Shown here in pieces: positions 8,871 through 26,584 of a stretch of DNA of 64,000 nt. The position numbers were made by a program, and so were the translations under genes. The notes under the pieces were generated by a model, which saw nothing but the letters and a program-made list of their open reading frames with translations, did no database searches and was not told the origin of the DNA. Within the stretch, counting starts at the first letter, position 1, and every line of letters starts with the position of its first letter. This stretch comes from the human T2T-CHM13v2.0 reference genome, Homo sapiens. The DNA is taken from the NCBI RefSeq assembly GCF_009914755.1, contig NC_060933.1, one strand, 5' to 3'.

Positions 8871-9319
8871 ACTTAATGATGCTAATAAACATGTTGTGTC
8901 CCTAAGCACGGGTGGAATCTTGCCTGACGTCCTTCTCTCTGCGTCCTGGTCAGTCTTCACATGGTGGGCCTCCTTTATTTCCGGTCACACACGGGTGGTA
9001 CACAGAGCATGCTGTTTCTTTCCTGCCAGAAGGTTCCTGCTGCAGCTCTCCTGCTAGTTTAGCTTAGCCTTCTGGTTTGAGGGATGAGTCACATGTACCA
9101 TCACTTCCCAGGACCAACAGGACCTTTCAGGAAAGCTATCCCTGCTTACACAGAGAATTGCCCTTGCCTAACACTGAAGCCTGGCAGAGTAACATGAAAT
9201 AACCACAGCAATTCTAAAATTAGAATTAGCATGCCTAGAATAACAGGTATAACCTTCTCTTGTAGTTTATCACTTGCTTCATTTCTGCTCAGCCTAATTT
9301 TCACTTGATGTGTAGATTT

Positions 9320-9620
9320 ATTTTTTGTTCACCCATCCAGAAAATGTTGACTGAGGAATTACTCTGTGTTAGGTGCTGTTGTAGGAGCAAGGGATACAAT
9401 GATGATCAAGGCAGATGCAGCCGTTACCTTCAGGTTGTGGAGTCCGGATACAGACTGGAGGCAGGCAGCTGTAAGATGTGTGAGAAATGCTGCGCTGGAT
9501 CAGCCCATGGTATTAGGAGAGCAGGTAAGGAAGGGTGGGGACAGGAGCGGACAACCTGGAGGAAGAGGCACCTAAGCAGAGTCCGGAAGGCTGAGGAGGA
9601 GTCAGCAGGTAAAAGAGAGG
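9320..9620 (-). mobile_element. L2 3' fragment
   Basis: Degenerate L2 end: ...gactgagg..actctgtgttaggtgctg...gggatacaatgatgatcaaggcaga. Confidence 0.5.
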
Positions 9621-9827
9621 GGAATCATGACATGCCATCTCAACTGTAGGACACGGCTAGCTGGCTGACTTAGCTGCTGTAACACCGGATTTTTGCAAGA
9701 CTCCCTGAGTATTTCTCGTGGACTTGCGAACAAATCTGAGCAAGAAAACCACGTAATTTCTTTTATGCCTTGCCCAAGAAAGCCACCTGGAGGGGCAAGG
9801 GGACCTTAGCAGAAAGAAGCTGGAGGT

Positions 9828-12800
9828 GGGGGGAGAACAGGGTGATATTACTCTCCATATGGTGGGGGGTGGACACCTCCCTGTCATATGGCTCGTAATA
9901 TCCAGCGGGGGAGAGGGGGTTGACTTTCCCCTACGTTATTGGTAATATCACCCCCCTCTCTCCCGCTAAATATTAAGTACAATATCACAGGTGGGGTGTA
10001 CACCCCCGGCGATGTTTGAAGTAATATCAACTTCTCCCCCTCTGGATGTTAGAAACAATATCACAGGGGGGTGTACACCCCCCTGCGATCCTGGGAGTAA
10101 CATCATCCTCTTTCCCCCGGATATTAGGAACAATATCACGGGGAGGGGGGTGCACACCCCCTGCGATATTGAAAGTCATATCATCTTCTTTCTCCCCGGA
10201 TATTAGGAACAATATCACAGAAGGTGTTTACAACTTTTGCAATGTTGGGAGTAATATCATCCTCTCTCACCCTAGATATTCAGAACAACATCACATGGGA
10301 ATTGTACCCTTCTGTTTATTGAGAGTAATATCATCCTCTCCCTTTCTGTATATTAGAAACAATATCACAGAGGGCTGTGTACACCCCCAGGAATGTTTTG
10401 AGTAATATTATCCTCTCTCTGCCTGGATATTTGGAACAATATGACAGGAGTTGTGTACACCCACTGTGATATTCGGTTTAATATCAACTTCTATCCCCTG
10501 GATATTGGGAGTAATATCTATCTTTAGCCCCTGGATACTAGGGACAATATCACAGGAGGGGTGTATACACACGGCGCTATTGGGAGTAATATCATTTTCT
10601 CCACCCCTTGATATTAGGTACAATATAACAGTGGGGATGTGTACCCCCTGGGATATTGGGAGTAATATTAATCTCTTCCCCTGTGGATGTTAGGAACAAT
10701 ATCACAGAAGGGGTGTATACCCCCAGCGATATTGGGAGTAAGATCATCCTCTCCCAACTTGGATATTAGGAATAATATCACAGGGGAAGTGTATAACCCC
10801 TGCGATATTGTGAGTAATATCATCCTCTCCCAAAATGGAGATTAGGAACAATATCACAGGAAAGGTGTACACCTCTTCTGATATTTGTGGTAATATCATC
10901 TCCTCCCCTCATTGATATTAGGAAAGATATCACAAGGTGTGTACAGCCCCTGCGATATTGGGAGTAATATTATTCTCTCTTCCCCTGGATATTAGAAATA
11001 ATATCACAGGCGGAGTGTACAGCAAACCCCCTGCGATATTGGGGGTAATATCATCCTCTTTTAACCTGGATATTAGGAACAATATCACAGGGGGCTTGTA
11101 CACTTCTTTTGACACTGGGAGTAATATCATCCTCTCCACAAGTAAATAGTAGGAAAAATATCAAAGAAGGTGTGTACACCGCTTGTGATATTGGGAGTAA
11201 TATCATCCTACCTCACCTGGATGTTAGAAAAAATATCGGGGGGCGTTTACACCACCTGCGATATTGGGAGTAATATGATTTTCTACCCCAGTGGATATTT
11301 AGAACAATATCACAGGGGCAGTGTACACCCTCTGAGATATTGCGAGTAATATCGTTCTCACCCCGCCGCCCCCACCCCAGATATTAGGAACAATGTAACA
11401 GGCAGATTATACACCTGCTGCAACATTGAAAGTAATATCATCCTTTTCCCCCTGGATATTAGGAACAATATCTTATGGGGGGTTTACAGCCCATTCCATT
11501 TTGGGAGTAATATCAACTTCTTCATTGCTGGAAATAAGAAACAATATAGCAGTTCTGGTGTACACACCCTGTGATATGGGCAGTAATATCATAGACTCTC
11601 CCCCGGCATATTAGGAACAATATCAGAAAGGGGTGTATACCCACAGCGATTTTGGGATTAATATCATACTCTCCCCCCTGGATATTAGGAACCATATCAA
11701 AGAAGGAGTGTCTACCCCTTGCGATAGTGACAGTAATATCATCCTCTCCCTCCCTGGATATTAAGAACAATACCACAGAATTGGCGTACACCCACTACGA
11801 TCATGGGAGTAATGTCATCCTCTAACCCCTGGATATTAAAAACAATATCACAGAGGAGGTGTACACCCCTCGCGATATGGCCAGTAACATCATCGTCTCC
11901 TCCACTGCGTATTAGGAACAATATCAAAGGGGTGTGTACACCTCCTGCGCTATTGGGAGTAATGTCATTCTCTTTTCCCCTGAATATGAGGAATAATATC
12001 ACTGATGGGGTGTACAACTCCTACGATATAGGCAGTAATATCATCCTCTCCCAACCTGGATATTAGGAACAAAATAACAGGACATCTACACCCCCTGCGA
12101 TACTGGGAATAATATCATCCTCTCTCCCACTTAATATTAGAAACCGTATCCCAGGAAGAGTGTAAACCCTCTGAGATATTGAGAGTAATATCATCCACTC
12201 CCTACCTAAATATTAAAAACAATGTCACGGGAGGGGTGTACACCCCTACAATATTGGGAGTAATATCATCCTCTCCCTCCCGAGATATTAGAAACAATAT
12301 AAAAGGGGTCGCGTACACCCCCTGTGATATTGGGAGTAATATCATTCTAATCCCCCCTGGATATTAGGAAGAATATTATACAGGGGATGTACACCCCTTG
12401 ACATATTGTGAGTCATATCATTTCTCTTCCCTTGGACAATAGGGACAACATCACGGGTGGGGGGTGTCCCCTGTTATATTGAAATTATTATCATCCTCTC
12501 CCAAACTGAATATTAAAAACAACGTCACGGGGCTGCTGTGACCCCAGTAATATGGACAGTACTATCATTGTCTCCCTCCCTAAATATTAAGAACAGTATC
12601 ACAAGAGAGGTGTACACCCCCTGCGATATGGCCAGTAATATCATCGTCTCTACCTTTGGATACTAGGAACAACATCACAGAGGGTGTGTACACCCCCTGC
12701 GATATTGGGCATAATGTTAGCCTCTCTTCCCCTGGATATAAGGAACAATATCCCTGGTCGGGGGAGGTGGAGTACATTAAGAACAATATCTGAAGGAGGT

Positions 12801-14062
12801 GGGTGTACACCCCCTGAGATATTGGGTGTAGTATCATCCTCTCTTTCCTAGGATACTAAGAACAATATCACAGGAGGGGTGTACAGCCCCTGCGATATTG
12901 GGAATAATATCACCCTATCCCCCTCTCGATATAAGGAACAATATCCCAGGGTGGGTGTACATCCCCTGCGATATTGGGCGTAATGTCATCATCTCCCAAC
13001 GTGGATATTGGGAATAAAGTCCCAGGGGGGTGTACACCTTCTTCGATATTGGGAGTAGTATCGTCCTCTCCCCTCGGGATTGTAGGCAAAATATGGAAGG
13101 GGTTTTACAACTCATGCGATATGGGCAGTAATATCATCCTCTCCACCTAGATATTAGGAACTATATCACAGGCGGCTGTACACTTGTTACGATATTGGGA
13201 GTAATATCATCCTCTCCCATCATGGATATTAAGAACAATATTCCAAAGGAGGTGTACACCCCCTGCGATACTGAGAGTAATATTATGCTCTCCCCTTCGG
13301 GATATTAGGAACAATATCGCAGGAGGTGTGTATAACCCCTGTGATATTGGGAGTGATATCGCCTTCTCCCCCTGAATATAAGGAACAATGTCACAGGAGG
13401 ATGTACACCCCCTGGGATATTGGGAGTAATATGATTTTCTCCCCCTCGAGATATTCGGAACAATATCACAATGGGTGTGTACAGCCGCTGCGACATTGCC
13501 ACTGGTATCATCCTCTCCCTCCCAGGATATAAGGAACAATGTCACAAGGGGTGTACACCCCCTGTGATATTGGGGGTAATATCTTCCCCTCCCCCGCTGG
13601 CCATTAGGAACAATGTCACAGAAGAGGTGTCCACTCCCTGCTACATTGGGAGTGAGATCATCCTCTCTGTCCCTGGATATTAGGAACAATATCCCTAGGG
13701 AGTGTACACCTCCTGCAATATTGAGACTAACATCATCCTCTTGCCCCCTGGATATTAGGATCAATATCACAGGGGTGGTGTACATCCCCTGCGAAACTGG
13801 AAGAAATATCATCCTCTCCACCTTTGGATGATAGGGACAATATCACGGGGGAAGTCTACGCCCCCTGCGGTATTGGGAGTCATATCATCCTCTCCCACCC
13901 ACGATATTAGGAAAAAAGATGACCGAAGGGATGTATACACACTGCGATATTTTTCATAATGTCATCCTCTACTCCCTGGCAATTAGGAATAACATCATAG
14001 AGGGGTGTACACTTTCTGTGATATTGGGAGTAACATCCTCTACCCCTCGGATATCGGGAACA
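9828..14062 (+). repeat. SATR1/SATR2-family satellite, ~75-bp palindromic monomers (first ~100 bp reversed, rest forward)
   Basis: Tandem GATATTAGGAACAATATCACAGGGGGGTGTACACCCCCTGCGATATTGGGAGTAATATCATCCTCTCCCCCCTG-like units with period 74-79. The family name is from recall. Confidence 0.85.
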
Positions 14063-14478
14063 ATTGTATTAAGTATTAATATTCATAAATATAATAACAA
14101 TTAATAGAAATCATCGATATAAATAATTACTATAAAGATAGTAAAAGTTAATACGGATTAAAAATATTAATGTTTACTATTAATAATTAACAGCAACCTC
14201 ACTATTAATAATAACATAATGATATCGGTAATTAATGTTACTTAATTAAATCAATAAGTGATGTTGGTAATAAAACAATAATTAATATTAAGGTTAATAA
14301 CGAATATTGAAAAATGACAATACTAATAATTAATTTTAACCATGCATAATCATATTTAAAATAATCATTAATGATTAATAACGTTATACTATTAATTAAT
14401 ATTACCATTGATAATTATTAAGACTGATGTTTAATAATTAGTAATATTATTAAGACTGATGCTTAATAATTAATCATA
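14063..14478. repeat. AT-rich spacer 1 at the satellite orientation switch
   Basis: Very AT-rich low-complexity tract; satellite is forward on the left and reverse on the right. Confidence 0.9.
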
Positions 14479-15720
14479 TTATTTCTCCTAATACCGTAGG
14501 GGGTGTACACCTACCTGTGATATTGTTCCTAATATCCAGGGATGGAGAGCATGATATTAGTTTTAATATCTCAGTAGGTGTACACTCACCCTGTGACACT
14601 GATCCTAATATCCAGGGGATAGAGCATGACATGACTCCCAACATAGCAATTAATGTACAGCCACCCGGTGATATTGCTCCTAATATTCACGGAAGAAGAG
14701 TATGATATTACTCCCAATATCGCAGGGAGTGTACACCTCTTCTGTGACATTGTTCCTGGTATCCCGCCGGGGAGAGGATGATAAAAATTAAAGTATCGCA
14801 GGCTGTGTTCACTCACCCTGTGATATTGTTATAAATATCCTGAAAGGGAGAGGACGATATTACTTCCTATAACAGATAGATATTACTCTCCATAATAGAG
14901 CAGGAGGTGTACACCCACCGTGTGATACTCTTCCTAATATTCAGAGGCAGAGAGGTCGATATTACTCTCAATATCGCAGGAAGTGTACACCCCCGTGTGA
15001 GATGGTCCTTAATAATATTCCAAGGCAGAGGGGGTGATATTACTACATTTATCGCAGAAAGTGTACACCCCCCCCAGGGATGTTGTTCCCATGATCCTGG
15101 AGAGAAGAGGATGATATTAGTTTAAATATGACAGAAGGTGTACACGCCCCAACTGATATTGTTTCTAATTTCAGTGTAGGAGAGGAGGATATGACACCCA
15201 ATATCGCAGGGAGTAGAAACACACCTGTGATACGGTTCTTAATATTCAGGGTGGAAGAGGATGATATTACTCTCAATACAGACGGGTGTACAACCTGCAC
15301 ACCGAGGGTGTACACCCATCTGTCAAACAGCACATAATTTCCAGAGGGGGAGATATTACCCCCAATATAGTAAACAGGCTGTGAGTCCACCGTGGATCGT
15401 AATAACTCGGGGGGGGAGAGGAGGTGGCTCTTACTCCCCATATCGCGGGGGGTGCCTCACCCCACTGCGAGGTGGATCATAATAGCGAGGGGTGGGGAGA
15501 AGGGGTGGCTGTTACTACCCATATCGCGGAGGGTGCCTCACCCCCGACATGTGGATCGTAATAAATAGCCGGGGGGGGGGGGAAGGGGGTGGCTCTTACT
15601 CCCCATATCTCAGGGGGTGCCTCACACCCCTGCAATGTGGATCATAATAAATAGCTGGGGGGGAAAGGGGGTGGCCCTTACTCCCCATACCGCGGGGGGT
15701 GCCTCAACCCCTGCGATGTG
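14479..15720 (-). repeat. SATR-type satellite in reverse orientation, grading into GC-transitional monomers (15400-15720)
   Basis: GATATTGTTCCTAATATCC...GATATTACTCCCAATATCGC is the reverse complement of the forward monomer. Confidence 0.85.
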
Positions 15721-15724
15721 ACCT

Positions 15725-18432
15725 GTGTCCGTTGTGAGCATTCTCTTTTTTCCTGCTATTAGGAACAATTTCACAGAGTGTGTGTACACAGCCTGCGATA
15801 TGAAAACTAATATCCTCTGCACCTCCGCATATACGGACCATATCACACAATGGGTGTACACTTTTTGCGGCATTTGGGGTCATGTCATCCTGTGTTTCCC
15901 TAAATAGTCGGGGAAATATCACAGGCCTATTCGGAGGCACATCCTACTTTTGCTACTGGAAATTAGGAGTAATATCACAGATGGGGTGTAAAGCCGCTGT
16001 CATATTTGAAGTAATATCATGCTCTCCCCCACTAGTTGTGACGCGCAGTATCACAGGGGGTATATACCTTCTGCGGTATTGGGAGTAATATCATCATCTC
16101 TTCCTTTACATGATAGGAACAACATCAGAGACGGGGTGTACACCCCGTGTGTTTTTGAAAGCAATGTCATTCACTCTTCTTCTAGATTTTACGATTCATA
16201 TCACAGGCGGGGTGTGCACCCCTTCTTATATTGGGAGTCATCGGATCCTTTTTCAAGCTGTATATTTAGAACAATATCCCATGGGGCTGTACATGTCTTC
16301 GATACTGGTCGTAATATCATCTTGTCCTTTCCTGGATACAAGAAAAAATATCACAGACGAGGTGTACACCCCTTGTAATATTGGGAGTAATATCACCTCT
16401 CCCCATGTGGTTATTAAGGACAAAATCACAGGGTGGTGTACAGTTCCTACTTTATTGAGAGTAATATCATCCACTCACCCCCTGGATATCAGGAGCCATA
16501 TCACAGAAGAGTTGTACACCCCCTTCGATATTGTCAGCAATATCACCATCTTCCCACCTAGATATTAGGAACAATACCCCGGGGGGCTTGGGGGTGTACA
16601 CCCACTGCGAGATCCAGAGTAATATCAGCCTTTTCCCGCTGGATATTAGGAAGTATATCACAGGTGTGTGTGCATCTTCTGCGATATTGGGAGTAATATC
16701 AGCCTCTACCCCGCTGCATATTAGGAACAATATACGGGGGGCGTGGGGGTTACACTCCCTGCGATATTGAGAGTAATGTTATTCTCTTCTCCCTGTACAT
16801 TAGGAACCATTTCCGGGGTCGTGGGGGTTACGCTCCCTGCGATATTGAGAGTAATGTTATTCTCTTCTCCCTGTACATTAGGAACTATATCACGGGGTCT
16901 GTACACCTTCTGCCATGTTGGGATTAATGTAATCCTCTCCCCCCACTGAATATCAAAAACAATATCACAGACGGGCGTACACCCTCTGCGATATGGCCAG
17001 TAATATCATCGTCTCTACCTTTGGATACTAGGAACAACATCACAGAGGGTGTGTACACCCCCTGCGATATTGGGCGTGATATTAGCCTCTCTTCCCCTGG
17101 ATATGAGGAACAACATCCCTGGTCAGGGGAGGTGGAGTACATTAAGAACAATATCTGAAGGAGGTGGGTGTACACCCCCTGAGATATTGGGTGTAGTATC
17201 ATCCTCTCTTTCCTAGGATACTAAGAACAATATCACAGGAGGGGTGTACAGCCCCTGCGATATTGGGAGTAATATCATCCCCTCCCCCTCTCTATATAAG
17301 GAACAATATCCCGGGGTGGGTGTACATCCCCTGCGATATTGGGCGTAATGTCATCGTCTCCCAACGTGGATATTGGCAATAATGTCCCAGGGGGTTGTAC
17401 ACCTTCTTCGATATTGGGAGTAGTATCGTCCTCTCCCCTCGGGATTGTAGGCAAAATATGGAAGGGGTTTTACAACTCATGCGATATGGGCAGTAATATC
17501 ATCCTCTCTCCACCTAGATATTAGGAACTATATCACAGGCGGCTGTACACTTCTTGCGATATTGGGAGTAATATCATCCTCTCCCATTATGGATATTAAG
17601 AACAATATTACCAAAGAGGTGTACACCCCCTGCGATATTGACAGTAATATTTGGCTCTCCCCTTCGGGATATTAGGAACAATATCGCAGGAGGTGTGCAC
17701 AACCCCTGCGATACTGGGAGTCATATCATCCTCTCCCCCTGAATATAAGAAACAATATCACGGGAGGATGTACACCCTGTGCGATATTGGGAGTAATATC
17801 ATTTTCTCCCCCTCGGGATATTCGGAACAATATCACAGTGGGTGTGTACAGCCGCTGCGACATTGCCACCAGTATCATCCTCTCCCTCCCAGGATATAAG
17901 GAACAATGTCACAAGGGGGCGCACACCCCCTGCGATATTGGGGGTAATATCTTCCTCTGCCCCGCTGGCTATTAGGAACAATGTCACAGAAGGGGTGTCC
18001 ACTCCCTGCTATATTGGGAATGAGATCTTCCTCTCCATCCCTGAGTATTAGGAACAATATCCCTAGGGAGTGTACACCTCCTGCAATAGTGAGACTAAGA
18101 TCATCCTCTCGCCCCCTGGATATTAGGATCAATATCATAGGGGTGGTGTACACCCCCTGCGAAATTGGAAGAAATATCATCCTCTCCACCTTTGGACGTT
18201 AGGGACAGTATCACGGGGGATGTCTACGCCCCCTGCGATATTGGGAGTCATATCATCCGCTCCCACCCAGGACATTAGGAACAAGATGACGGAACGGAGG
18301 TACACCCGCAGCGACATTTTCAATAATGTCATCCTCTACGTCCTGGCAATTAGGAGAAACATCATAGAGGGGTGTACACTTTCAGCGACATCGGGAGTAA
18401 TATCCTCTCCCCCACAGATATCGGGAACAGTT
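15725..18432 (+). repeat. SATR-type satellite, forward orientation (second array)
   Basis: GATATTAGGAACAATATC and GATATTGGGAGTAATATC motifs resume. Confidence 0.85.
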
Positions 18433-18843
18433 ATATTAATTATTAATATTAATAAATATATTAATAATTAATAGTAATCATCGATATTAATAATTGCAAT
18501 AGAGATAGTAAAAGTGAATATGGATAAAAATATTAACAATTACTATTAATAATAACAATATCACTATTAATAATAAAATAATGATATTATTAATCAGTGT
18601 TACATAAATCAGTCATAAGTGATGTTGGTAATAAAACAATAATTAATATTAAGATTAATAACTAATATTATTGAAAAATGACATTAATACAGATAATTTT
18701 AATCATGCATAATTGTACATTTAAAATAATCATTAATGATTAATAACGTTATACTATTAATTAATATTACCATTGATAATTATTAAGACTGATGTTTAAC
18801 AATTAATAATATTATTAAGATTGATGCTTAATAATTAATCGTA
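18433..18843. repeat. AT-rich spacer 2 (paralog of spacer 1)
   Basis: Shares long runs with 14063-14478 at an offset of ~4365. Confidence 0.9.
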
Positions 18844-19770
18844 TTATTTCTCCTAATACCGCAGGGGGTGTACACCTACCCGTGATATTGTTCCTAATAT
18901 CCAGGGATGGAGAGCATGATATTAGTTTTAATATCTCAGTAGGTGTACACTCACCCTGTGACACTGATCCTAATATCCAGGGAGTAGAGTATGACATGAC
19001 TCCCAACATAGCAATGAATGTACAGCCACCCGGTGATATTGCTCCTAGTATTCACGGAAGAAGCGTAGGATATTACTTCCAAAATCGCAGGGAGTGTACA
19101 CCTCTTCTGTGATATTGTTCCTGGTATCCCGAGGGGGAGAGGATGATAATAATTCCAGTATCGCAGGCTGTGATCACCCACCCTGTGATATTGTTATTAA
19201 CATCCTGAAAGGGAGAGGATGATATTACTCCCCGTAATAGATAGATATTACTCCCCATAACAGAGCAGGAGGTGTACACCCACCCTGTGATATTGTTCCT
19301 AATATTCAGAGGCCGAGAGGTCGATATTACTCCCAATATGGCAGGAAGTGTACACCCCCGTGTGAGATGGTCCTTAATAATATTCCAAGGCGGAGGGGGA
19401 GATATTACTCCCAAAATCGCAGAAAGTGTACACCCCCAGGGATATTGTTCTCATGATCCTGGAGGGAAGAGGATGATATCACTTTAAATATCACAGAAGG
19501 TGTGCACGCCCCCACTGATATCGGTTCTAATTTCCACGTGGGAGAGGAGGATGTGACGCCCAATCACACCTGCAGTAGAAACACAGCTGTGATACTGTTC
19601 TTAATATTCAGGGAGGAAGACGATGATATTACTCCCAAAACAGACGGCTGTACACCCTCTGCACACCGAGGGTCTACCCCCATCTGTGAAATAGTTTATA
19701 ATTTCCAGAGGGGGAGATGATATCACTCCGAATACCATAAACAGGCTGTGAGTCCACCGCGGATCCTAAA
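18844..19770 (-). repeat. SATR-type satellite, reverse orientation
   Basis: Colinear copy of 14479-15400. Confidence 0.85.
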
Positions 19771-22455
19771 AACCAGGGAGGGAAGAGGGGCTGGCACTTA
19801 CTCCCCGCATCGCGGGGGGTGTCTCAACCCCTTGCGATGGGGGTCCTAAGAGCCAGGGGGGGAAGAGGGGCTGGCTATTACACCCCGCATCAAGGGGGGT
19901 CCCGGCGATGGGGGTCCTAAGAGCTAGTGGGGGAAGAGGGCCTGGCTCTTATTCCCCGACTCGCGAGGGATGCCTCCCCCCTCTGCTATGGGGGTCCCAA
20001 GAGCCACAGGGGAAGAGGGGCTGCCTCTCAGTCCCCGCCTCGCGGGGGGTGCCTCCTCCTCCTGCGATGGGGGTCCTAAGAGCCAGGGGGGGAAAGGAGC
20101 TGGCTCTCAGTCCCTGTCTCGCGGGGGGTGCCTCCCCCCACTGCGATGGGGGTCCTAAGAGCCGGGGGGGGGAAGAGGGGCTGGCTCTCAGTCCCCGCCT
20201 CGCGGGAGGTGCCTCCCCCCACTGCGATGGGGGTCCCAAGAGCCAGGGAGGGAAGAGGGGCTGGCTCTCAGTCCCCGCCTCGCGGGAGGTGCCTCCACCC
20301 CTTCCGATGGGGGTCCCAAGACCGAGGGAGGGGAGAGGGGCTGGCTCTCAGTCCCCTCCTCCCGGGGGTACCTCCTCCGCCTGCGATGGGGGTCCCAAGA
20401 GACAGGGGGGGAAGAGGGGCTGGCTCTCAGTCCACGCCTCGTGGGGGATGCCTCCCCCCCCTGCGATTGGGGTCCCAACAGCCAGCGGGGGAAGAGGGGC
20501 TGGTTCTCAGTCCCCGCCTCGCGGGGGATGCCTCCCCGTGCTGCGATGGGGGTCCCAAAAGCCAGGGGGTGAAAAGGGGCTGGCTCTCAGTCCCCACCTC
20601 GCGAGGGGTGCCTCTCCCCCCTGCGACAGGTGTCCTAATAGCCAGGGGGGGAAGAGGGGCTGGCTGTCAGTCCCTGCCTCGCGGGTGGTCCTTCACCCCG
20701 CTGCGATGGGGGTCCTAAGAGCAAGGGGGGGAAGTGGGGCTGGCTCTCTGTCCCCGCCTCGCCGGGGGTGCCTCGCACCCTTGCGATGGGGGTCCTAAGA
20801 GCCAGTAGGGGAAGAGGAGCTGGCTCTCAGTCACCTCAGCATGGGGGGCCTTTCTGTTCTGGTTTTGCCCAAGAGTAAGCTTATTTGCATCTGGTTCTAG
20901 CAAGGGAATTGCTGCGAAGGCCCTCAAACAGGGGGGCCATCCTTTCGAATCCCTATCTAGTTGTTTAGAGATGTAGGCCACCGGCCTCAGCCAAGGCCCC
21001 ACAGTTTGGGTTAAAAGTCCAGCTGCCATCTTTTCTCTCTGACGCATACAATGGAAAAGGCTTTGTGAGATCGGGTAGCCCCTCGGCTGGGGCTTTCAGA
21101 AGTTTTTCCTTTAAGTCATGAAAGACTTGCTGTTGTTGGAATCCCCATTCCAAAAGTTCCCGGTCCCCGCCCCCATTGTGACCTCATACAAAGGCTTGGC
21201 TAATACTGCAAAGTTTGGGATTCCCAGTCTACAAAACCCCACAGCTCCTAGGAATTCTCTCACCACCCTTGTGCCTTTAGGCTTCGGTAGATTGCAAATG
21301 ACCTGCTTTCTTTCGGATCCCGGGCTGCTTTCGGACACCTGTCGAATAGTAAATCCCAAGTAAGGTACCTGCGGTCGTCGGCAGATCTGAATTTTCTTCT
21401 TGGACACCTAATACCCACAGTCCTCCAGGTCGGTCCCAAGGATCTTAGAATCCGCGATGGGGGTCCTAAGCCACGGGAGGAAGAGGGACTGGCTCTCAGT
21501 CCCCGCCTCGCGGGGTGTGCCTCCCCCGTGTGATGGGGATCCTCAGAGGTGGGCGGGGAAGAAGGGCTGGCTCTTAGACACCGCCTCGCGGGGGGTGCCT
21601 CCCCCGCCTGCGATGGGGGTCCTAAGAGCCAGGGGGGAAAGAGCGGCTGGCTCTCAGTCCCCGCCTCGCGGGGGGTGCCTCCCCACCTGCTATGGGGGTC
21701 CTAAGAAAAATGGAGGGAAGAGGGGCTGGCTGTCAGTCCCCGCCACGCGGGGGGTGCCACCCCCCTGCGATGGGGGTCCCAAGAGCCAGGGGGGGAAGAG
21801 CGGCTGGCTCTCAGTCCCCGCCTCGCGGGGGGTGCCTCCCCCCCCTGCGATGGGGGTCCCAAGAGCCAGGGAGGGAAGGGGTCCCAAGAGCCAGGGGAGG
21901 AAAAGCAGCTGGCTCTCAGTCCCCGCCTCGCGGGGGGTGCCTCCACCCTGCGATGGGGGTCCCAAGAGCCAGGGGGGGAAGAGCGGCTGGCTCTAATTCC
22001 GCGCCTCGCGAGGGGTGCATCCCCCCACTGCGATGGGCGTCCTAAGAGCCAGGGAGGGAAGAAGGGCTGACTCTGAGTCCTTGCCTCGCGGGGGGTGCCT
22101 CACCCCCTGCGATGGGGATCCTAAGAGCCACGGGGGGAAGAGGAGCTGGCTCTCAGTCCCCGCCTCGCGAGGGGTGCCTCCTCCCCCTGCGATGGGGGTC
22201 CTAAGAGCCAGGAGCGGAAGAGGGGCTGGCTCTCTGTATCCACCTCGCGGGGGGTGCCTCCCCGCCCTGTGATGGGTGTTCTAAGAGCCAGAAGGCTTAG
22301 GGGGGCTGTCTCTCAGTCCCCGCCTCGCGGGGAGTGCCTCCCCTTCCTGCGACGGGGATCCTAAGAGCCAGGGGGGGAACAGGGGCTGGCTCAGTCCCCG
22401 CCTTGCGGGGGGTGGCTCGCTCCCCTGCGATGGGCATCCTAAGAACCAGGGGAGG
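19771..22455. repeat. GC-rich ~79-bp satellite (derivative of the reverse SATR monomer), interrupted by an ERV fragment
   Basis: Tandem GCGATGGGGGTCCTAAGAGCCAGGGGGGGAAGAGGGGCTGGCTCTCAGTCCCCGCCTCGCGGGGGGTGCCTCCCCCCCT; period 79 (20064 to 20143). Confidence 0.9.
20830..21432 (-). mobile_element. Class I ERV (HERV-E-like) pol fragment, RT thumb/connection region, frameshifted, no LTR
   Basis: Minus-strand peptides YLGFTIRQ, REFLGAVGFCRL.IPNFAVLAKPLYEVT, LPDLTKPF.LY, RPVAY.SKQLD..SKGWPPCLRA and KLTLGQ lie in three frames. Confidence 0.85.
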
Positions 22456-22832
22456 AAGAGGGGGAGAGGATGATAATAATTTCAGCATCGCAGGCTGTGT
22501 TCACCCAGCCTGTTAAATCGTTATTTATATCCTGAAAGGGAGAGGATGATATTACTCCCCGTAATAGACAGATATGACTCCCCATCGTAGAGCACGAGGT
22601 GTACACCCGCCCTGTGATTTTCTTCCTCATATTCAGAGACCGAGAGGTTGATGTCACTCCCAATATCGGAGGAAGTATACACCCCCGTGTGAGATGGTCC
22701 TTAATAATATTCCACGGCGGAGGGGGTGATATGACTACATACATGGCAGAAAGTGGAAACCTCCCAGGGATATTGTTCCCACGATCCTGGAGGGAAGAAG
22801 ATGATGTTACTTTCAATATGACAGAAGGTGGA

Positions 22833-23864
22833 TGAAGTGGTGGACTGCCCCTCCACACCTGTGAGTATTTCTAGTTGGGTGGGTGGGAGGAGAGACTGAG
22901 AAAAGAAATAAGACACAGAGACAAAGTGTAAAGATACAACAGTGGGTCCAGGGGACCGGCGCTCAGCACACCAAGGACCTGCACCGGCACCAGCCTCTGA
23001 GTTCCTTCAGTTTTTATTGATTATGATTTTCATTATTTTAGCAGAAAGGAATGTAGTAGGAGAGCAGGGTGATGATAAGGAGAGAGTCTGCAGAAGACAT
23101 GTGAGCAAAAGAATCTATGTCATAATTAGGTTCAAGGGAAGGTACTATGACTGGACGTGCACGTAAGCCAGATTTGTTTCTCTCCACCCAAACATCTCAG
23201 TGGAGTAAAGAATAACAAGGCAGTGTTACTGCAAACATGTCTCGCCTCCCGCCACAGGGCAGCTTTTCCCCTATCTCAGAGTTGAACGAATGTACAATCG
23301 GGTTTTACACCGAGACATTCAGTTCCCAGGGGCAAGCAGGAGATAGTGGCCTTCCTCCACCTCAGCTGCAAGAGGCTTTCCTCTTTTACTAATCCACCTC
23401 AGCACAGACCCTTTACGGGTGTCGGGCTGGGGGACAGTCAGGTCTTTCTCATCCCATGAGGCTATATTTCAGACTATCACATGGGGAGAAAGCTTGGACG
23501 ATACCCTGCTTTCAAGGGCAGAGGTCCCTGCGGCTTTCCACAGTGCATTGTGCCCCTGGTTTATTGAGACTAGAGAATGGCGATGACTTTTACCAAGTAT
23601 ACTGCTGGTAAACATTTTGTTAACAAGGCACGTCCTGCACAGCCCTACATCCCTTAAACTTTGATTTTATACAACACATGTTTTTGTGAGCTCCAGGTTG
23701 GGTCAAAGTGGCTGGGGCCAAGCGGCTAGGGCAAAGCTACAAATTAACAACATCTCAGCAAAGCAATTGTTTAAAGGACAGGTCTTTTTCCAAATGGAGT
23801 CTCTTATGTCTTTCCTTTCTACATAGACACAGTGACAGTCTGATCTCTCTTTCTTTTCCCTACA
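22833..23864 (-). mobile_element. Solo HERV-K(HML-2) LTR5A-type LTR, 1032 bp
   Basis: The minus strand begins TGTAGGGAAAAGAAAGAGAGATCAGACTG and ends ...CCACCACTTCA. Perfect 6-bp TSD GGTGGA at 22827-22832 and 23865-23870. Confidence 0.92.
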
Positions 23865-24430
23865 GGTGGACACGCCCCCACTGATATTCCTTCTAATTGC
23901 AGCGTGGGAGAGGAGGATATGACACGCGATATCGCAGGGAGTAGAAACAACCCTGTGATACTGTTCTTAATATTCAGGGAGGAAGAGGATGATATTACTC
24001 CCAATACAGACGGGTGTACACCCTCTGTACACCGAGGGTGTACACCTGTCTGTGAAAGAGTTCGTAATCTCCAGAGGGGGAGATGATATTACTCACAATA
24101 TGGTAAAGAGGCTGTGAGTCCACGGAGGATCCTCAGAGCCAGCAGGGGAAGAGGGGCTGGCTCTCAGTCCCTGCCTCGCGGGGGTGACTCCCCCCAGTGC
24201 GATGGGGGTCCTAAGAGCCAGTGGGGGAAGAGGGGCTGGCTCTGAGACCCCGCCTCGCGGGGGGTGCCTCCCCGCCCTGTGATGGGGGTCCGAAGAGCCA
24301 GAAGGCTTAGAGGGGCTGGCTCTCAGTCCCTGCCTCGCGGGGGGTGCCTCCTCCCCCTGCGATGGGGGTCGTAAGAGCCACTGGGGGAATAGGGGCTTGC
24401 TCTCAGTCACCGCCTCGCGGGGGGTGCCTC

Positions 24431-24485
24431 CTTTCCTTTCTACATAGACACAGTGACAGTCTGATCTCTCTTTCTTTTCCCTACA
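24431..24485 (-). mobile_element. Isolated 55-bp LTR5 5' tip (duplicate of 23810-23864)
   Basis: Identical ctttcctttctacatagacacagtgacagtctgatctctctttcttttccctaca followed by the same flank. Confidence 0.9.
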
Positions 24486-24979
24486 GATGGACACGCCCCC
24501 ACTGATATTGTTTTTAATGCAGCGTGGGAGGGGAGGATATGACACGCGATATCGCAGGTAGTAGAAACACCCCTTTGATAGTGTTCTTAATATTCAGGGA
24601 GGAAGAAGATGATGTTACTCCCAATACAGACGGATGTACACCCTCTGTACACCGAGGGTGTACACCCGTCTGTGAAGGAGTTCGTAATCTCCAGAGGTGG
24701 AGATGATATTACTCACAATATGGTAAACAGGCTGTGAGTCCATCGCGGATCCTCAGAGCCAGGTGGGGAAGAGGGGCTGGCTGTCAGTCCCCTCCTCGCG
24801 GGGGGTGCCTCCCCCACTGCTATGGGGATCCCAAGAGCCAGTGGGGGAAGAGGTGCTGGCTCTCAGTCTCCGCCTCGCGAGGTGCCTCCCCACCCTGCGA
24901 TCGGGGTCCGAAGAGCCAGGGGGGAAGAGGGGCTGGCTCTCTTCGTGGATGATTCTTTTTCCATTCTCAGGCAGTTTTC

Positions 24980-25281
24980 TTTTTTCTTTCTTTCTTTTTT
25001 TTTTTTTTTTGAGACTGAGTCTTGCTCTGTTGCCCATGCTTTGCTCGATCTCGGGTGACTGCAACCACTGCCTCCCAGGTTCAAGAGATTCTCCTGCCTC
25101 AGCCTCCTGAGTAGCTGGGACTAGAGGCGTGTGTCACCACACCCAGCTAATTTTTGTATTTTTAGTAGAGATGGGGTTTCACCATGTTTGCCAGGATGGT
25201 CTTTATCTCCTGCCCTTGTGATCCACCCACCTCAGCCTCCCAAAGTGCTGGGATTGCAGGTGCGAGCCACCGGGTCCAGCC
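24980..25281 (-). mobile_element. Alu (S-type)
   Basis: Poly-T then the Alu body; TSD-like TCTCAGGC..TTTTC on both sides. Confidence 0.9.
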
Positions 25282-25299
25282 TCTCAGGCGATTTTCATA

Positions 25300-25730
25300 C
25301 CTGCATACTCTGATCACTACTCTGTTAAACAGTCAAGGAGGGGAAGTATTATCTTCAGATTTCCAGAGCTCTGTCTCTGTACAGCCCTCTCCTCCTCAAT
25401 ATTCTGCCCTATGAATTCTAGCCACATTGGCCTTCCCAGGCTCACAGTTCTGTCTTCTCAACTCAGGAAGATCTCTGAGTTCCATCTGCATTCTTTCTTC
25501 CTGTGCTGTGGCCTGGAAAGTTTTCTAAGGTGTTAGGGAGGTCAATTGTGGGGCTAGCCTCATTTGTTTCTCATCTCTTGAGGATCACTGCCCTTTGATG
25601 CTTGATTCCAGTGATTGATTCCCTTTGTTGCTTGAGGGCCATAGTTTCATATATTTTGTCCAGTAGTTTTGTTGTTTTAGGTCAGAAAGTAATTTTGGTC
25701 TCTGTTACTCTATCTTGGCCAGAAGTGTAA
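25300..25730 (-). mobile_element. Old L1M 5'-region fragment
   Basis: Ends ...ctgttactctatcttggccagaagtg, typical of old L1M 5' ends (recall). Confidence 0.5.
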
Positions 25731-26584
25731 GACCTAAGCATTTACACATCAAAATACTGCACACATAATTTTAGTTTAAGCTACTTTTTAAAAAATCTCC
25801 TTCATTTTCCATTTAGCATTCTATTTAGGGTATTACATTGGTTTTTTTGAAATTCTGTTATTGGCAGTTTCTATTGCCTATCAATCCCATTTAAAGATAG
25901 TGCATAGGGTATTCTAAAATAGCTGTTAAGCAAAGAGAAAATTGGGCCTGATAGGGTGAGAATCACAGCTCTAATACCTAGAGTGACCTTATAATGTATT
26001 GTCCAAAGGAGATATTTTTGACAGTGAAAGAGGGTGTTGTTAGTAATTATATCAGGACCATGGCCTAAACCAGGACTATCCCAGGAAGCCTGGGACATAT
26101 TTGTACCCCATCTCTATTTAATGCCTTTATACAATTCTTTACTTAATTCTACCAGCCTTTATTGAGCCTGCTTTCTTTGTCTAGCTGAGTGCCATGTGCT
26201 GACGTCACTAAGATCAATACAGCAAACTCTGAAAGATGGACAGAGAGACAGGAGATGGTCCTTTATAATGCAGTGTGATCTGTGCTGCAATAGAGGTGAG
26301 CACAAGGGCCTTACGAAGGTTCAGTGAAGAGCATGCTTGACTGCAGGGGAGGGTACTTAGGTTAGAAAAGATGAGTCGAAGTATGTTCATAGGGAGCATG
26401 AGATGAGAGGTGGTGGGAAAGGTATTCCAGACAGTGTGTGTCAAGGCCAAGAGCCAGGGGAACACAGGTAGGGCTTTTTTTTTTTTCTTCTAAGATGGAA
26501 GAGTGTTCTGATCGGCTGGAAAACAATGCACATGGGAAGCTGTACAGAAATGAGTGGGGAAAGGTAATACTTAACAGCAACAGC

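What the first reader, a model, noticed from the sequence alone, without database searches (positions are those of the whole stretch)
19771..22455. GC-rich satellite is a structure-conserving rewrite of the AT-rich monomer, with compensatory changes in both hairpins
Seen: the 79-bp GC monomer aligns end to end with the reverse SATR monomer (CCTGtGATattgtTCCTAAtAtCCAGGGGGG-AGAGG...TCGC-GGGGGTG vs CCTGcGATgggggTCCTAAgAgCCAGGGGGGgaAGAGG...TCGCGGGGGGTG). Stem 1, TAATATC/GATATTA, becomes TAAGAGC/GCTCT(T/C)A, so each T>G on one arm is matched by A>C on the other. Stem 2, AATATCGC/GTGATATT, becomes CCCCGCATCGC/GCGATGGGG (e.g. 19803-19843). Inference: the fold rather than the sequence is being maintained, either by intra-monomer hairpin-templated conversion or by selection on a cruciform or RNA structure. 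This is the best candidate for an undescribed system in the window.
Basis: partly seen in the sequence, partly recalled or inferred. Interest (0 to 1): 0.8.

Follow-up and report, generated by a model that had tools for sequence, protein, structure and literature searches.

The report
GC-rich variant of palindromic SATR satellite
This is a GC-rich offshoot of a known human satellite repeat whose two mirror-image halves changed in step when the offshoot arose, most likely through DNA copying errors between the halves and not because a folded structure is being protected.

Summary
The 78-80-bp GC-rich arrays (19761-20852, 21454-22418) are collinear, in-phase relatives of the neighbouring 76-bp AT-rich SATR-type monomer, and transitional monomers link the two. 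The monomer is a quasi-palindrome. In the consensus, both arms changed in matching positions: 16 of 22 arm positions still pair, against about 10-11 expected when the same changes are placed at random (P 0.003-0.009).

I collected 510 GC monomers from 14 loci on six chromosomes and 193 AT monomers. Within each family there is no covariation on the palindrome axis. Paired and unpaired columns vary equally. Pair-breaking changes reached 88-89% of copies. Folding energies match those of shuffled sequences, and RNAalifold finds no consensus fold.

So the symmetry is a founder-stage event that was later amplified and dispersed by segmental duplication. My best reading is a few templated DNA-level events (template switch, or quasi-palindrome correction) during a strong AT-to-GC shift. 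A GC-rich SATR1 variant and this array layout are already in print, and so is the proposed mechanism. Ordinary overall, with a modestly interesting mutational footprint.

The parts
19761..20852 (+). GC-rich array, 14 monomers of about 80 bp (69% G+C). The first three monomers (19752-19979) are transitional 'edge' types.
   Evidence: TRF; nhmmer; composition; edge states
20853..21453 (-). 601-bp non-satellite insert: a degenerate retroviral pol-like fragment with broken frames on the minus strand. A gap of the same size (about 600 bp) recurs inside GC arrays at other loci.
   Evidence: ORFs. Pfam RT_RNaseH_2 E 0.005 and RT_RNaseH E 0.009, both below the curated cut-offs. Roughly 600-bp gaps in the array maps.
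21454..22418 (+). GC-rich array, 12 monomers
   Evidence: TRF; nhmmer
22425..22506 (+). Chimeric monomer at the right junction: a GC-type arm 1 joined in the loop to an AT-type arm 2
   Evidence: Sequence; scores 36 with the AT profile and 24 with the GC profile
15394..15706 (+). Intermediate 81-bp array (4 monomers, 61% G+C). It is the positional paralogue of the start of the GC array. One stem-1 pair is fully swapped and one is half-swapped; motif 4 is still AT-type.
   Evidence: TRF; duplication 12700-15520 against 17065-19885, 90.4% identity
18880..19737 (+). Forward AT-rich 76-bp array (11 monomers) that runs into the GC array
18431..18879 (.). AT-rich spacer (27-35% G+C) with a 32-bp repeat, lying between the inverted and forward AT arrays
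15704..18430 (-). Inverted AT-rich 76-bp array (36 monomers)
9917..14064 (-). Inverted AT-rich 76-bp array (55 monomers), the older paralogous block
24126..24431 (+). Short GC-rich array (4 monomers) preceded by 3 AT monomers (23882-24106)
24747..24890 (+). Short GC-rich array (2 monomers) preceded by 3 AT monomers (24503-24725)

Best explanation
The GC-rich arrays are a derived, GC-shifted subfamily of the 76-bp AT-rich SATR-type satellite. They lie inside a known composite duplicon made of SATR arrays and a retroviral fragment.

The monomer is a quasi-palindrome: two 22-25-nt arms around a purine-rich loop, plus a second palindromic centre at the monomer junction. When the subfamily arose, 15 of the 16 arm changes in the consensus were A/T to G/C. 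Many landed on matching positions of the two arms, so the inverted-repeat symmetry survived and was even extended.

I attribute that symmetry to a small number of DNA-level templated events in a founder lineage. One arm, or an adjacent G/C run, was copied in reverse complement onto its partner (template switching, also called quasi-palindrome correction). Array amplification and segmental duplication then carried the result to many loci. After that the arms drifted independently, and further A/T-to-G/C changes broke pairs.

Shown here: the homology, the symmetric consensus changes, the graded series AT > intermediate > edge > core, the multi-locus spread, and the absence of any within-family constraint on pairing.

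Inferred: the direction AT to GC, the templated mechanism, and the number of events.

The confidence of 0.5 is for the whole statement including the templated mechanism. Taken separately, I put about 0.95 on the homology and subfamily status and about 0.8 on the absence of ongoing selection for pairing.
For: - Homology and transitional forms.
- Symmetry beyond a shift null: 16 of 22 pairs against a mean of 11.2 or 9.8 (P 0.009 or 0.003). For AT to edge type, 17 of 22 against 12.1 (P 0.005).
- Footprints that fit templating. In the edge type, a 10-nt stretch of arm 2 (CTGGCTCTTA) is the exact reverse complement of arm 1 (TAAGAGCCAG). Relative to the AT form, arm 2 carries three substitutions and a 1-nt insertion in that stretch, all towards arm 1, and arm 1's flanking bases are unchanged. 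In arm 2, three adjacent substitutions turn CCCAAT into CCCCGC, the exact reverse complement of the GCGGGG three bases downstream. This makes a new local 6-bp hairpin and includes the one double change that does not fit the long stem.
- No ongoing maintenance.
- No thermodynamic signal.
- Dispersal: 267 matches (a lower bound) on six chromosomes. The junction monomer is shared between the window, chr9:77.05 Mb and chr11:71.5 Mb.
- The mechanism is known. The abstract of PMC8794818 states that template switching can fix the pairing of existing stems and give multi-base compensatory mutations.
Against: - The founder-stage statistic is post hoc and rests on few events (about 13 arm changes).
- Half-step states exist for the same pair. 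The intermediate array has T opposite C, monomer 19833 has G opposite A, and the core has G-C. So not every pair changed in one event, unless these are recombinants like the chimeric monomer at 22425.
- The intermediate array carries the GC-type arm 2 without a matching arm 1. This does not fit a simple 'arm 1 templates arm 2 within one monomer' story.
- MAFFT places the 4-nt length difference inside motif 3, so substitution and insertion cannot be told apart.
- No outgroup was available, so direction and simultaneity are unproven.
- Growth of G and C runs from already complementary seeds could mimic part of stem 2.
Confidence: 0.5

Rival explanations
1. Chance plus mutation bias on a sequence that was already a palindrome. 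A strong A/T-to-G/C drive (GC-biased gene conversion or a T>G-rich mutation process) and growth of G and C runs acted on both strands alike. Because the arms are reverse complements, the same sequence context sits on opposite strands, so the same changes appear 'compensatory' without any templating or fold.
For: - 15 of 16 consensus arm changes are A/T to G/C.
- The drive went on after the founder stage and broke pairs at columns 48 and 58.
- In stem 2 the new G run and C run grow out of a pre-existing G-C pair.
- With arm 1 gaining G and arm 2 gaining C taken as given, complementarity of double changes is unremarkable (my arithmetic).
- The P values are modest and post hoc.
Against: - The permutation null that keeps each arm's own spectrum still gives P 0.005-0.009.
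- The two motif pairs share the same ATAT core but changed differently. Motifs 2 and 3 went to GAG/CTC and motifs 1 and 4 to G-run/C-run, each matching its own partner. A purely context-driven process does not predict this.
- Arm 2 also gained a 1-nt insertion and a flanking change that extend the match to arm 1.
Confidence: 0.25
2. Selection on a fold. A DNA cruciform or hairpin, or an RNA hairpin in the lncRNA that runs through the arrays, is functional, and compensatory changes were selected to keep it.
For: - Founder-stage symmetry.
- One pair passes through a G-T wobble state in the intermediate array (A-T, then G-T, then G-C).
- Predicted lncRNA exons overlap the arrays (hub table, not checked by me).
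- PMC3059204 states that hsa-mir-3683 derives from SATR1 (passage).
Against: - No within-family covariation in 510 GC or 193 AT monomers.
- Equal variability of paired and unpaired columns in the GC family. In the AT family the difference disappears for A/T columns once bases are stratified (12.1% against 13.0%, P 0.79).
- Pair-breaking changes are near fixation.
- Only 8 of 510 monomers have all 11 stem-1 pairs.
- Mean folding z is -0.34 (GC) and -0.62 (AT). The palindrome-axis hairpin has at least 8 pairs in the minimum-energy fold of only 25 of 70 GC and 21 of 70 AT monomers.
- RNAalifold finds no consensus fold.
- No Rfam family reaches its gathering score in 9000-26000; none is listed inside the GC arrays at E<=1.
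Confidence: 0.08
3. Selection or drive for a protein-binding half-site carried in inverted copies on both arms. Each arm holds the same roughly 11-nt motif on opposite strands, and both copies track the preference of a binding protein such as a KRAB zinc-finger protein, so they change in parallel.
For: - The arms are two inverted copies of one sub-repeat.
- ZNF141 ChIP signal is reported as enriched over SATR1 satellites (passage in 10.1101/2023.02.27.530095).
Against: - Arm columns show no lower variability in the GC family.
- The arms diverge from each other after the founder stage.
- No binding data were examined for the GC variant.
Confidence: 0.07

Closest known systems
SATR1 / 'SATR1v' / SATR2 satellite-associated repeats of primates
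   Same: - A 76-bp AT-rich monomer in arrays of both orientations, next to GC-rich variant arrays.
- The local order, inverted AT array, AT-rich spacer, forward AT array, GC-rich array, matches the macaque SATR1-SATR1v core unit described in 10.1101/2025.08.04.668424 (passages).
- Hoyt et al. list a curated variant of SATR1 among the new T2T-CHM13 repeats (passage).
- Multi-locus, duplicon-associated spread.
   Different: I could not compare the window with the Dfam or Repbase consensus sequences, so the names are unverified. It is also open whether the human GC arrays are filed as SATR1 variant, SATR1v or SATR2. In the text I saw, none of these papers describes the monomer as a quasi-palindrome or notes arm-symmetric changes.
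SES element (SATR-HERVE-SATR) flanking the Xiao/DA core duplicons
   Same: Satellite arrays on both sides of a retroviral fragment. Copies lie on several chromosomes at sites of segmental duplication (PMC2700803 figure legend; PMC5088589 passages; my).
   Different: The fragment here is only 601 bp and matches Pfam RT/RNase H models below their cut-offs. I did not test whether it is HERV-E. The OR7E gene of Xiao was not looked for.
Template-switch (quasi-palindrome) mutations that create or repair hairpin stems
   Same: Clusters of nearby changes, including an indel, that make one segment the exact reverse complement of a neighbouring one. The apparent multi-base compensatory changes need no selection (PMC8794818 abstract; PMC5453318 and PMC3820800, search listing only).
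   Different: Here the event is inferred from family consensus sequences and paralogues, not from a reconstructed ancestor and descendant pair. The result was then amplified as a satellite subfamily. Those papers deal with unique sequence and RNA genes.
Structured RNA families supported by covariation (Rfam-type)
   Same: At consensus level, four A-T pairs are replaced by G-C pairs.
   Different: No covariation among 510 copies, no stability beyond shuffles, and no Rfam match.

Membership tests
SATR-type 76-bp satellite (as represented by the AT arrays of this window) | Collinear sequence homology of the whole monomer | tested here: met
   nhmmer with one GC monomer: 23 mostly end-to-end hits on the AT arrays. 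The AT profile hits the intermediate and GC monomers at E 1e-7 to 6e-3. Ungapped arms are identical at 15 of 22 and 13 of 22 positions.
SATR-type 76-bp satellite (as represented by the AT arrays of this window) | Continuity in place: in-phase junction and transitional monomers | tested here: met
   Junction at 19737/19761. The edge monomers 19752-19979, the intermediate array 15394-15706 and the chimeric monomer 22425-22506.
SATR1 / SATR1v / SATR2 as named in Dfam and Repbase | Match to the curated consensus | not testable with these tools
No repeat library was at hand.
SES (SATR-HERVE-SATR) flank of Xiao/DA duplicons | Retroviral (HERV-E) piece between SATR arrays | tested here: inconclusive
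   Minus-strand frames with RT/RNase H-like matches at E 0.005 and 0.009, below the Pfam cut-offs. HERV-E identity was not tested.
SES (SATR-HERVE-SATR) flank of Xiao/DA duplicons | Many interchromosomal copies | tested here: met
   267 matches (a lower bound) on contigs 3, 7, 9, 11, 12 and 13. Arrays with about 600-bp gaps at 13 fetched loci.
Conserved nucleic-acid fold (structured RNA or selected cruciform) | Covariation that keeps pairs among family members | tested here: not met
   GC family: 74 doubles against 77.9 expected, 31% complementary against 35% in controls. The best stem pair ranks 37th of 2926 in mutual information. AT family: 81 against 53.5 expected, but complementarity is 37% against 39% in controls, and the excess shrinks to 106 against 90.7 after removing near-duplicates.
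Conserved nucleic-acid fold (structured RNA or selected cruciform) | Stability beyond composition | tested here: not met
   z from -2.3 to +0.4 in 10 monomers. Mean z -0.34 (GC) and -0.62 (AT), 70 monomers each. RNAalifold -1.31 kcal/mol.
Template-switch / quasi-palindrome mutation | A cluster of changes that makes a segment the exact reverse complement of a nearby segment | tested here: met
   A 10-nt perfect inverted repeat in the edge type against 7 nt in the AT form, reached by 3 substitutions and 1 insertion in arm 2. Three adjacent substitutions also create a 6-bp local hairpin.
Template-switch / quasi-palindrome mutation | The changes arise together on one branch (ancestor and descendant pair) | not testable with these tools
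   No outgroup genomes were available. The paralogues show some half-step states.

The most novel reading that the evidence does not exclude
The palindrome matters at the amplification stage only. Monomers whose arms pair well would be the ones that get copied into new arrays, for example through hairpin- or cruciform-promoted fork stalling, template switching and unequal exchange. A new satellite subfamily would then be 'born palindromic' by hairpin-templated rewriting and decay afterwards. Such molecular drive would leave exactly what is seen here: founder-stage symmetry and no covariation among the copies. It would make this locus, with its graded AT, intermediate, edge and core series across paralogues, a natural record of how template switching founds a satellite subfamily.
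Probability: 0.12. Interest if true: 0.55.

Novelty: new member of a known kind. Interest (0 to 1): 0.25.

Why it matters
It shows that a striking set of 'compensatory' changes in a repeat need not indicate a functional fold. All copies descend from one founder, so the changes count as a handful of events, and the copies themselves show no constraint. The graded series of monomer types may serve as a worked example of templated mutation acting on a quasi-palindromic satellite. It also helps annotate a GC-rich, hard-to-sequence repeat tied to duplicon breakpoints.

Tried and rejected
- Joint MAFFT alignment of 102 AT, intermediate and GC monomers for a pair count. MAFFT put the 4-nt length difference inside motif 3, so one structure line could not serve both families. 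I did not run the count of structure pairs and used separate profile alignments with an explicit column map instead.
- G-quadruplex as the alternative structure. There are only 8 motifs with loops up to 12 nt in the three GC arrays scanned (2363 bp, about 30 monomers), and none with loops up to 7 nt. I dropped it as a main explanation.
- CpG-island reading. CpG observed/expected is 0.40-0.47 at 69-70% G+C, so this is not island-like.
- Lower variability of the arms in the AT family (12.8% against 21.3%, P 0.001). It disappears for A/T columns after stratifying by base (P 0.79). It remains weakly for G/C columns (P 0.04), where the unpaired columns are slippage-prone G runs.
- Excess of doubles at local-hairpin columns 56/62 (40 against 26.3 expected, 33 complementary). 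These are the two outcomes of CpG decay, G>A and C>T, which are complementary by nature.
- Rfam scan of 9000-26000. Nothing is listed in the GC arrays at E<=1; all six matches lie elsewhere and below their gathering scores.
I rewrote and reran it.
- Not in print, as far as I searched. Full-text searches for SATR1/SATR2 (31 papers, 25 listed) and SATR1v (2 copies of one work) turned up no title or passage on palindromic monomers or arm-symmetric change. I read passages only, and supplements of the bioRxiv papers were not open to me.
Full report
WHAT IS THERE

The window lies in human chr9 pericentromeric sequence between FOXD4L3 and PGM5. Bases 9.9-24.9 kb are filled with one satellite family in two forms (TRF; nhmmer maps).
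- The AT-rich form has a 76-bp period and about 44-47% G+C. It occurs in both orientations: 9917-14064 and 15704-18430 on the minus strand, and 14515-15372, 18880-19737, 22425-22831, 23882-24106 and 24503-24725 on the plus strand.
- The GC-rich form has a 78-80-bp period and 69-70% G+C. It is always on the plus strand: 19761-20852, 21454-22418, 24126-24431 and 24747-24890.
- A four-monomer intermediate array (81 bp, 61% G+C) lies at 15394-15706.
- Bases 12700-15520 and 17065-19885 are a 90.4%-identical duplication. The intermediate array is therefore the positional paralogue of the start of the main GC array.
Its minus-strand frames look like a decayed retroviral RT/RNase H region, with Pfam E values of 0.005 and 0.009, below the curated cut-offs.

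OBSERVATION

The GC monomer is homologous to the AT monomer.
- One GC monomer finds 23 mostly end-to-end, collinear matches on the AT arrays, each weak on its own.
- The AT profile finds the intermediate monomers (E about 1e-7) and several GC monomers (E 3e-5 to 6e-3), all in the same order.
- The two arms align without gaps.
- The AT-to-GC junction keeps the phase.
- A chimeric monomer at 22425-22506 joins a GC-type arm 1 to an AT-type arm 2.

The monomer is a quasi-palindrome. Arm 1 and arm 2 are reverse complements around a purine-rich loop, on axis i+j = 63 in AT profile columns and 65 in GC profile columns. A second palindromic centre sits at the monomer junction. The same columns can also pair within a monomer.

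Both stem rewrites are in the consensus of 510 GC and 193 AT monomers. TAATATC/GATATTA becomes TAAGAGC/GCTCT(T/C)A. The ATT/AAT part of the outer stem becomes a G run facing a C run.

IS IT MORE THAN CHANCE?

The AT consensus arms form 17 Watson-Crick pairs of 22, and the GC arms form 16. I kept each arm's own set of changes and permuted them among positions with the same ancestral base. This gives a mean of 11.2 pairs (P = 0.009). Pooling the changes strand-symmetrically gives a mean of 9.8 (P = 0.003). So a generic AT>GC shift does not fully explain the symmetry. The test is post hoc and rests on about 13 changes.

RELATED SEQUENCE ELSEWHERE

The whole assembly could be searched. A 237-nt piece of the GC array has 267 matches (a lower bound) on contigs 3, 7, 9, 11, 12 and 13.

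I fetched 13 loci of 10 kb each and took every monomer that scored at least 35 bits over at least 60 profile columns, dropping overlapping lower-scoring hits. This gave 510 GC and 193 AT monomers. GC arrays at the other loci are again cut by gaps of about 600 bp. The array-plus-insert is therefore one composite, dispersed unit.

A GRADED SERIES

- At the 5' edge of the window's array (19752-19979), at its chr9:77.05 Mb paralogue, and as a whole small array at chr11:71.5 Mb, there is an 'edge' (E) type.
- The E type has the full GC-type arm 1. Its arm 2 still keeps three AT-type states.
- The E type pairs at 20 of 25 axis positions, the core type at 19 of 25, and the AT type at 17 of the comparable 22.
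- E and core differ only at columns 48, 50 and 58 plus the end of the C run. Two of these three changes, both A/T to C in arm 2, break pairs. One creates a pair.
- The core states dominate: column 48 is C in 455 of 510 and column 58 is C in 447 of 510.
- The intermediate array is less advanced still. One stem-1 pair is swapped, one is half-swapped, one stem-2 pair is swapped and one sits at G-T.
- Of the 16 consensus arm changes from AT to core, 15 are A/T to G/C.

IS THE FOLD BEING MAINTAINED?

No signal was found within either family.
- Mutual information with average-product correction. The top pairs are subfamily-marker columns. The best stem pair ranks 37th of 2926 in the GC family and 85th of 2850 in the AT family, and the other stem pairs are spread over the whole ranking.
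- Double changes at consensus-paired positions, GC family. 74 observed against 77.9 expected under independence. 23 of the 74 (31%) are complementary, against 35% for control column pairs whose consensus bases happen to be complementary.
- Double changes, AT family. 81 against 53.5 expected, but complementarity is 37% against 39% in controls. Part of the excess comes from paralogous copies of the same monomer. After removing near-duplicates it is 106 against 90.7.
- Column variability, GC family. 7.9% for paired columns and 7.6% for unpaired non-CpG columns (P 0.995).
- Column variability, AT family. The arms look less variable, but not once A/T and G/C columns are separated (A/T columns: 12.1% against 13.0%, P 0.79).
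- Stem integrity. Only 8 of 510 GC monomers have all 11 stem-1 pairs.
- Folding as single-stranded DNA. z-scores run from -2.3 to +0.4 in ten monomers. The means are -0.34 (GC) and -0.62 (AT) in 70 monomers each. The palindrome-axis hairpin is prominent in the minimum-energy fold of about a third of them.
- RNAalifold on 32 GC monomers (27 from the window, 5 from the chr11 locus L022) gives -1.31 kcal/mol with a covariation term of -0.09, and it does not predict stem 1.
- No Rfam family reaches its gathering score in 9000-26000, and none is listed inside the GC arrays at E<=1.

HOW IT MOST LIKELY CAME ABOUT

The symmetry belongs to the founder lineage, not to the copies. Two features point to copying between inverted segments and away from independent point changes.
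- In the E type, a 10-nt stretch of arm 2 is the exact reverse complement of arm 1. To get there from the AT form, arm 2 needed three substitutions and a 1-nt insertion, all towards arm 1. Arm 1's flanking bases stayed as in the AT form.
- In arm 2, three adjacent substitutions turn CCCAAT into the exact reverse complement of the GCGGGG just downstream. This makes a new 6-bp local hairpin. It also accounts for the one double change that does not fit the long stem.

This is the footprint described for template-switch, or quasi-palindrome, mutations, which can give multi-base compensatory changes in one event (PMC8794818, abstract read; PMC5453318 and PMC3820800 seen in the search listing only).

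Against a simple version of this story, half-step states exist for the same pair in different paralogues, and the intermediate array has a GC-type arm 2 without the matching arm 1. Recombination between monomer variants, as in the chimeric monomer, could produce such states, but I cannot show that it did.

I put about 0.5 on templated events as the main cause. The rest: 0.25 on bias plus chance acting on a pre-existing palindrome, about 0.08 on selection for a fold, and about 0.07 on a protein half-site carried on both arms (ZNF141 is reported over SATR1; passage).

COMPARISON WITH WHAT IS KNOWN

- SATR1 and SATR2 are the 'satellite-associated repeats' that flank the Xiao/DA core duplicons as SATR-HERVE-SATR (PMC2700803 legend; PMC5088589 passages).
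- Hoyt et al. list a curated variant of SATR1 among the new T2T-CHM13 repeats (passage).
- The macaque T2T preprint describes GC-rich 'SATR1v' arrays in units made of SATR1v, an inverted SATR1 array, an AT-rich spacer and a forward SATR1 array (passages). That is the order seen here at 15704-19737 followed by 19761 onward.
- I could not compare with Dfam consensus sequences, so the names are unverified.
- In the passages I saw, none of these papers mentions the quasi-palindromic monomer or arm-symmetric change. Searches for SATR1/SATR2 (31 papers) and SATR1v (one work) gave nothing on it.

VERDICT

The claim of a maintained fold is not supported. The element is a catalogued satellite variant inside a known duplicon. 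The likely mechanism is a known mutational process. Interest is low to moderate.

Noticed in passing
window 20853-21453 (minus strand): A decayed retroviral pol-like fragment (RT/RNase H-like frames with breaks) sits inside the GC array. Gaps of about 600 bp recur inside GC arrays at the other loci, so array and insert form one composite repeat unit.
   Followed up: partly
window 12700-15520 and 17065-19885: An internal duplication, 90.4% identical over 2838 nt. One copy ends in the intermediate array and the other in the GC array, so the two array types diverged after the duplication or through later conversion.
   Followed up: partly
window 22425-22506: A chimeric monomer: a GC-type first arm joined within the loop to an AT-type second arm. 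This shows that exchange between the two monomer types happens in the loop.
   Followed up: no
L015, L016 (chr7) and L020 (chr13:79.9 Mb); 8 of 510 monomers: A small GC subfamily with changes on both arms. The changes disrupt the usual pairing axis but give a short new inverted repeat in a register shifted by 3. These columns account for most of the top mutual-information pairs.
   Followed up: partly
GC profile columns 52-57 and 61-66 (e.g. window 21659-21673): A local 6-bp hairpin with a 3-nt loop in the GC consensus, absent from the AT form and intact in 91 of 510 monomers. It dominates several predicted minimum-energy folds. The excess of complementary doubles at 56/62 is CpG decay at two sites.
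   Followed up: yes
window 14065-14514 and 18431-18879: AT-rich spacers (about 25-35% G+C) with a 32-bp tandem repeat, lying between the inverted and forward AT arrays. They may correspond to the AT-rich spacer of the macaque SATR1-SATR1v unit.
   Followed up: no
window 13461-13572 (minus strand) and 25009-25280 (minus strand): A sub-threshold Rfam match to mir-3179 inside an AT array (32.6 bits against a gathering score of 90). Two SRP-like matches most likely mark an Alu element (my reading, not tested). One paper states that hsa-mir-3683 derives from SATR1.
   Followed up: no
window 19761-22418: CpG columns are about twice as variable as other columns in the GC family (16.6% against about 7.7%), and CpG observed/expected is 0.40-0.47. 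The arrays are decaying at CpG sites like methylated DNA.
   Followed up: partly
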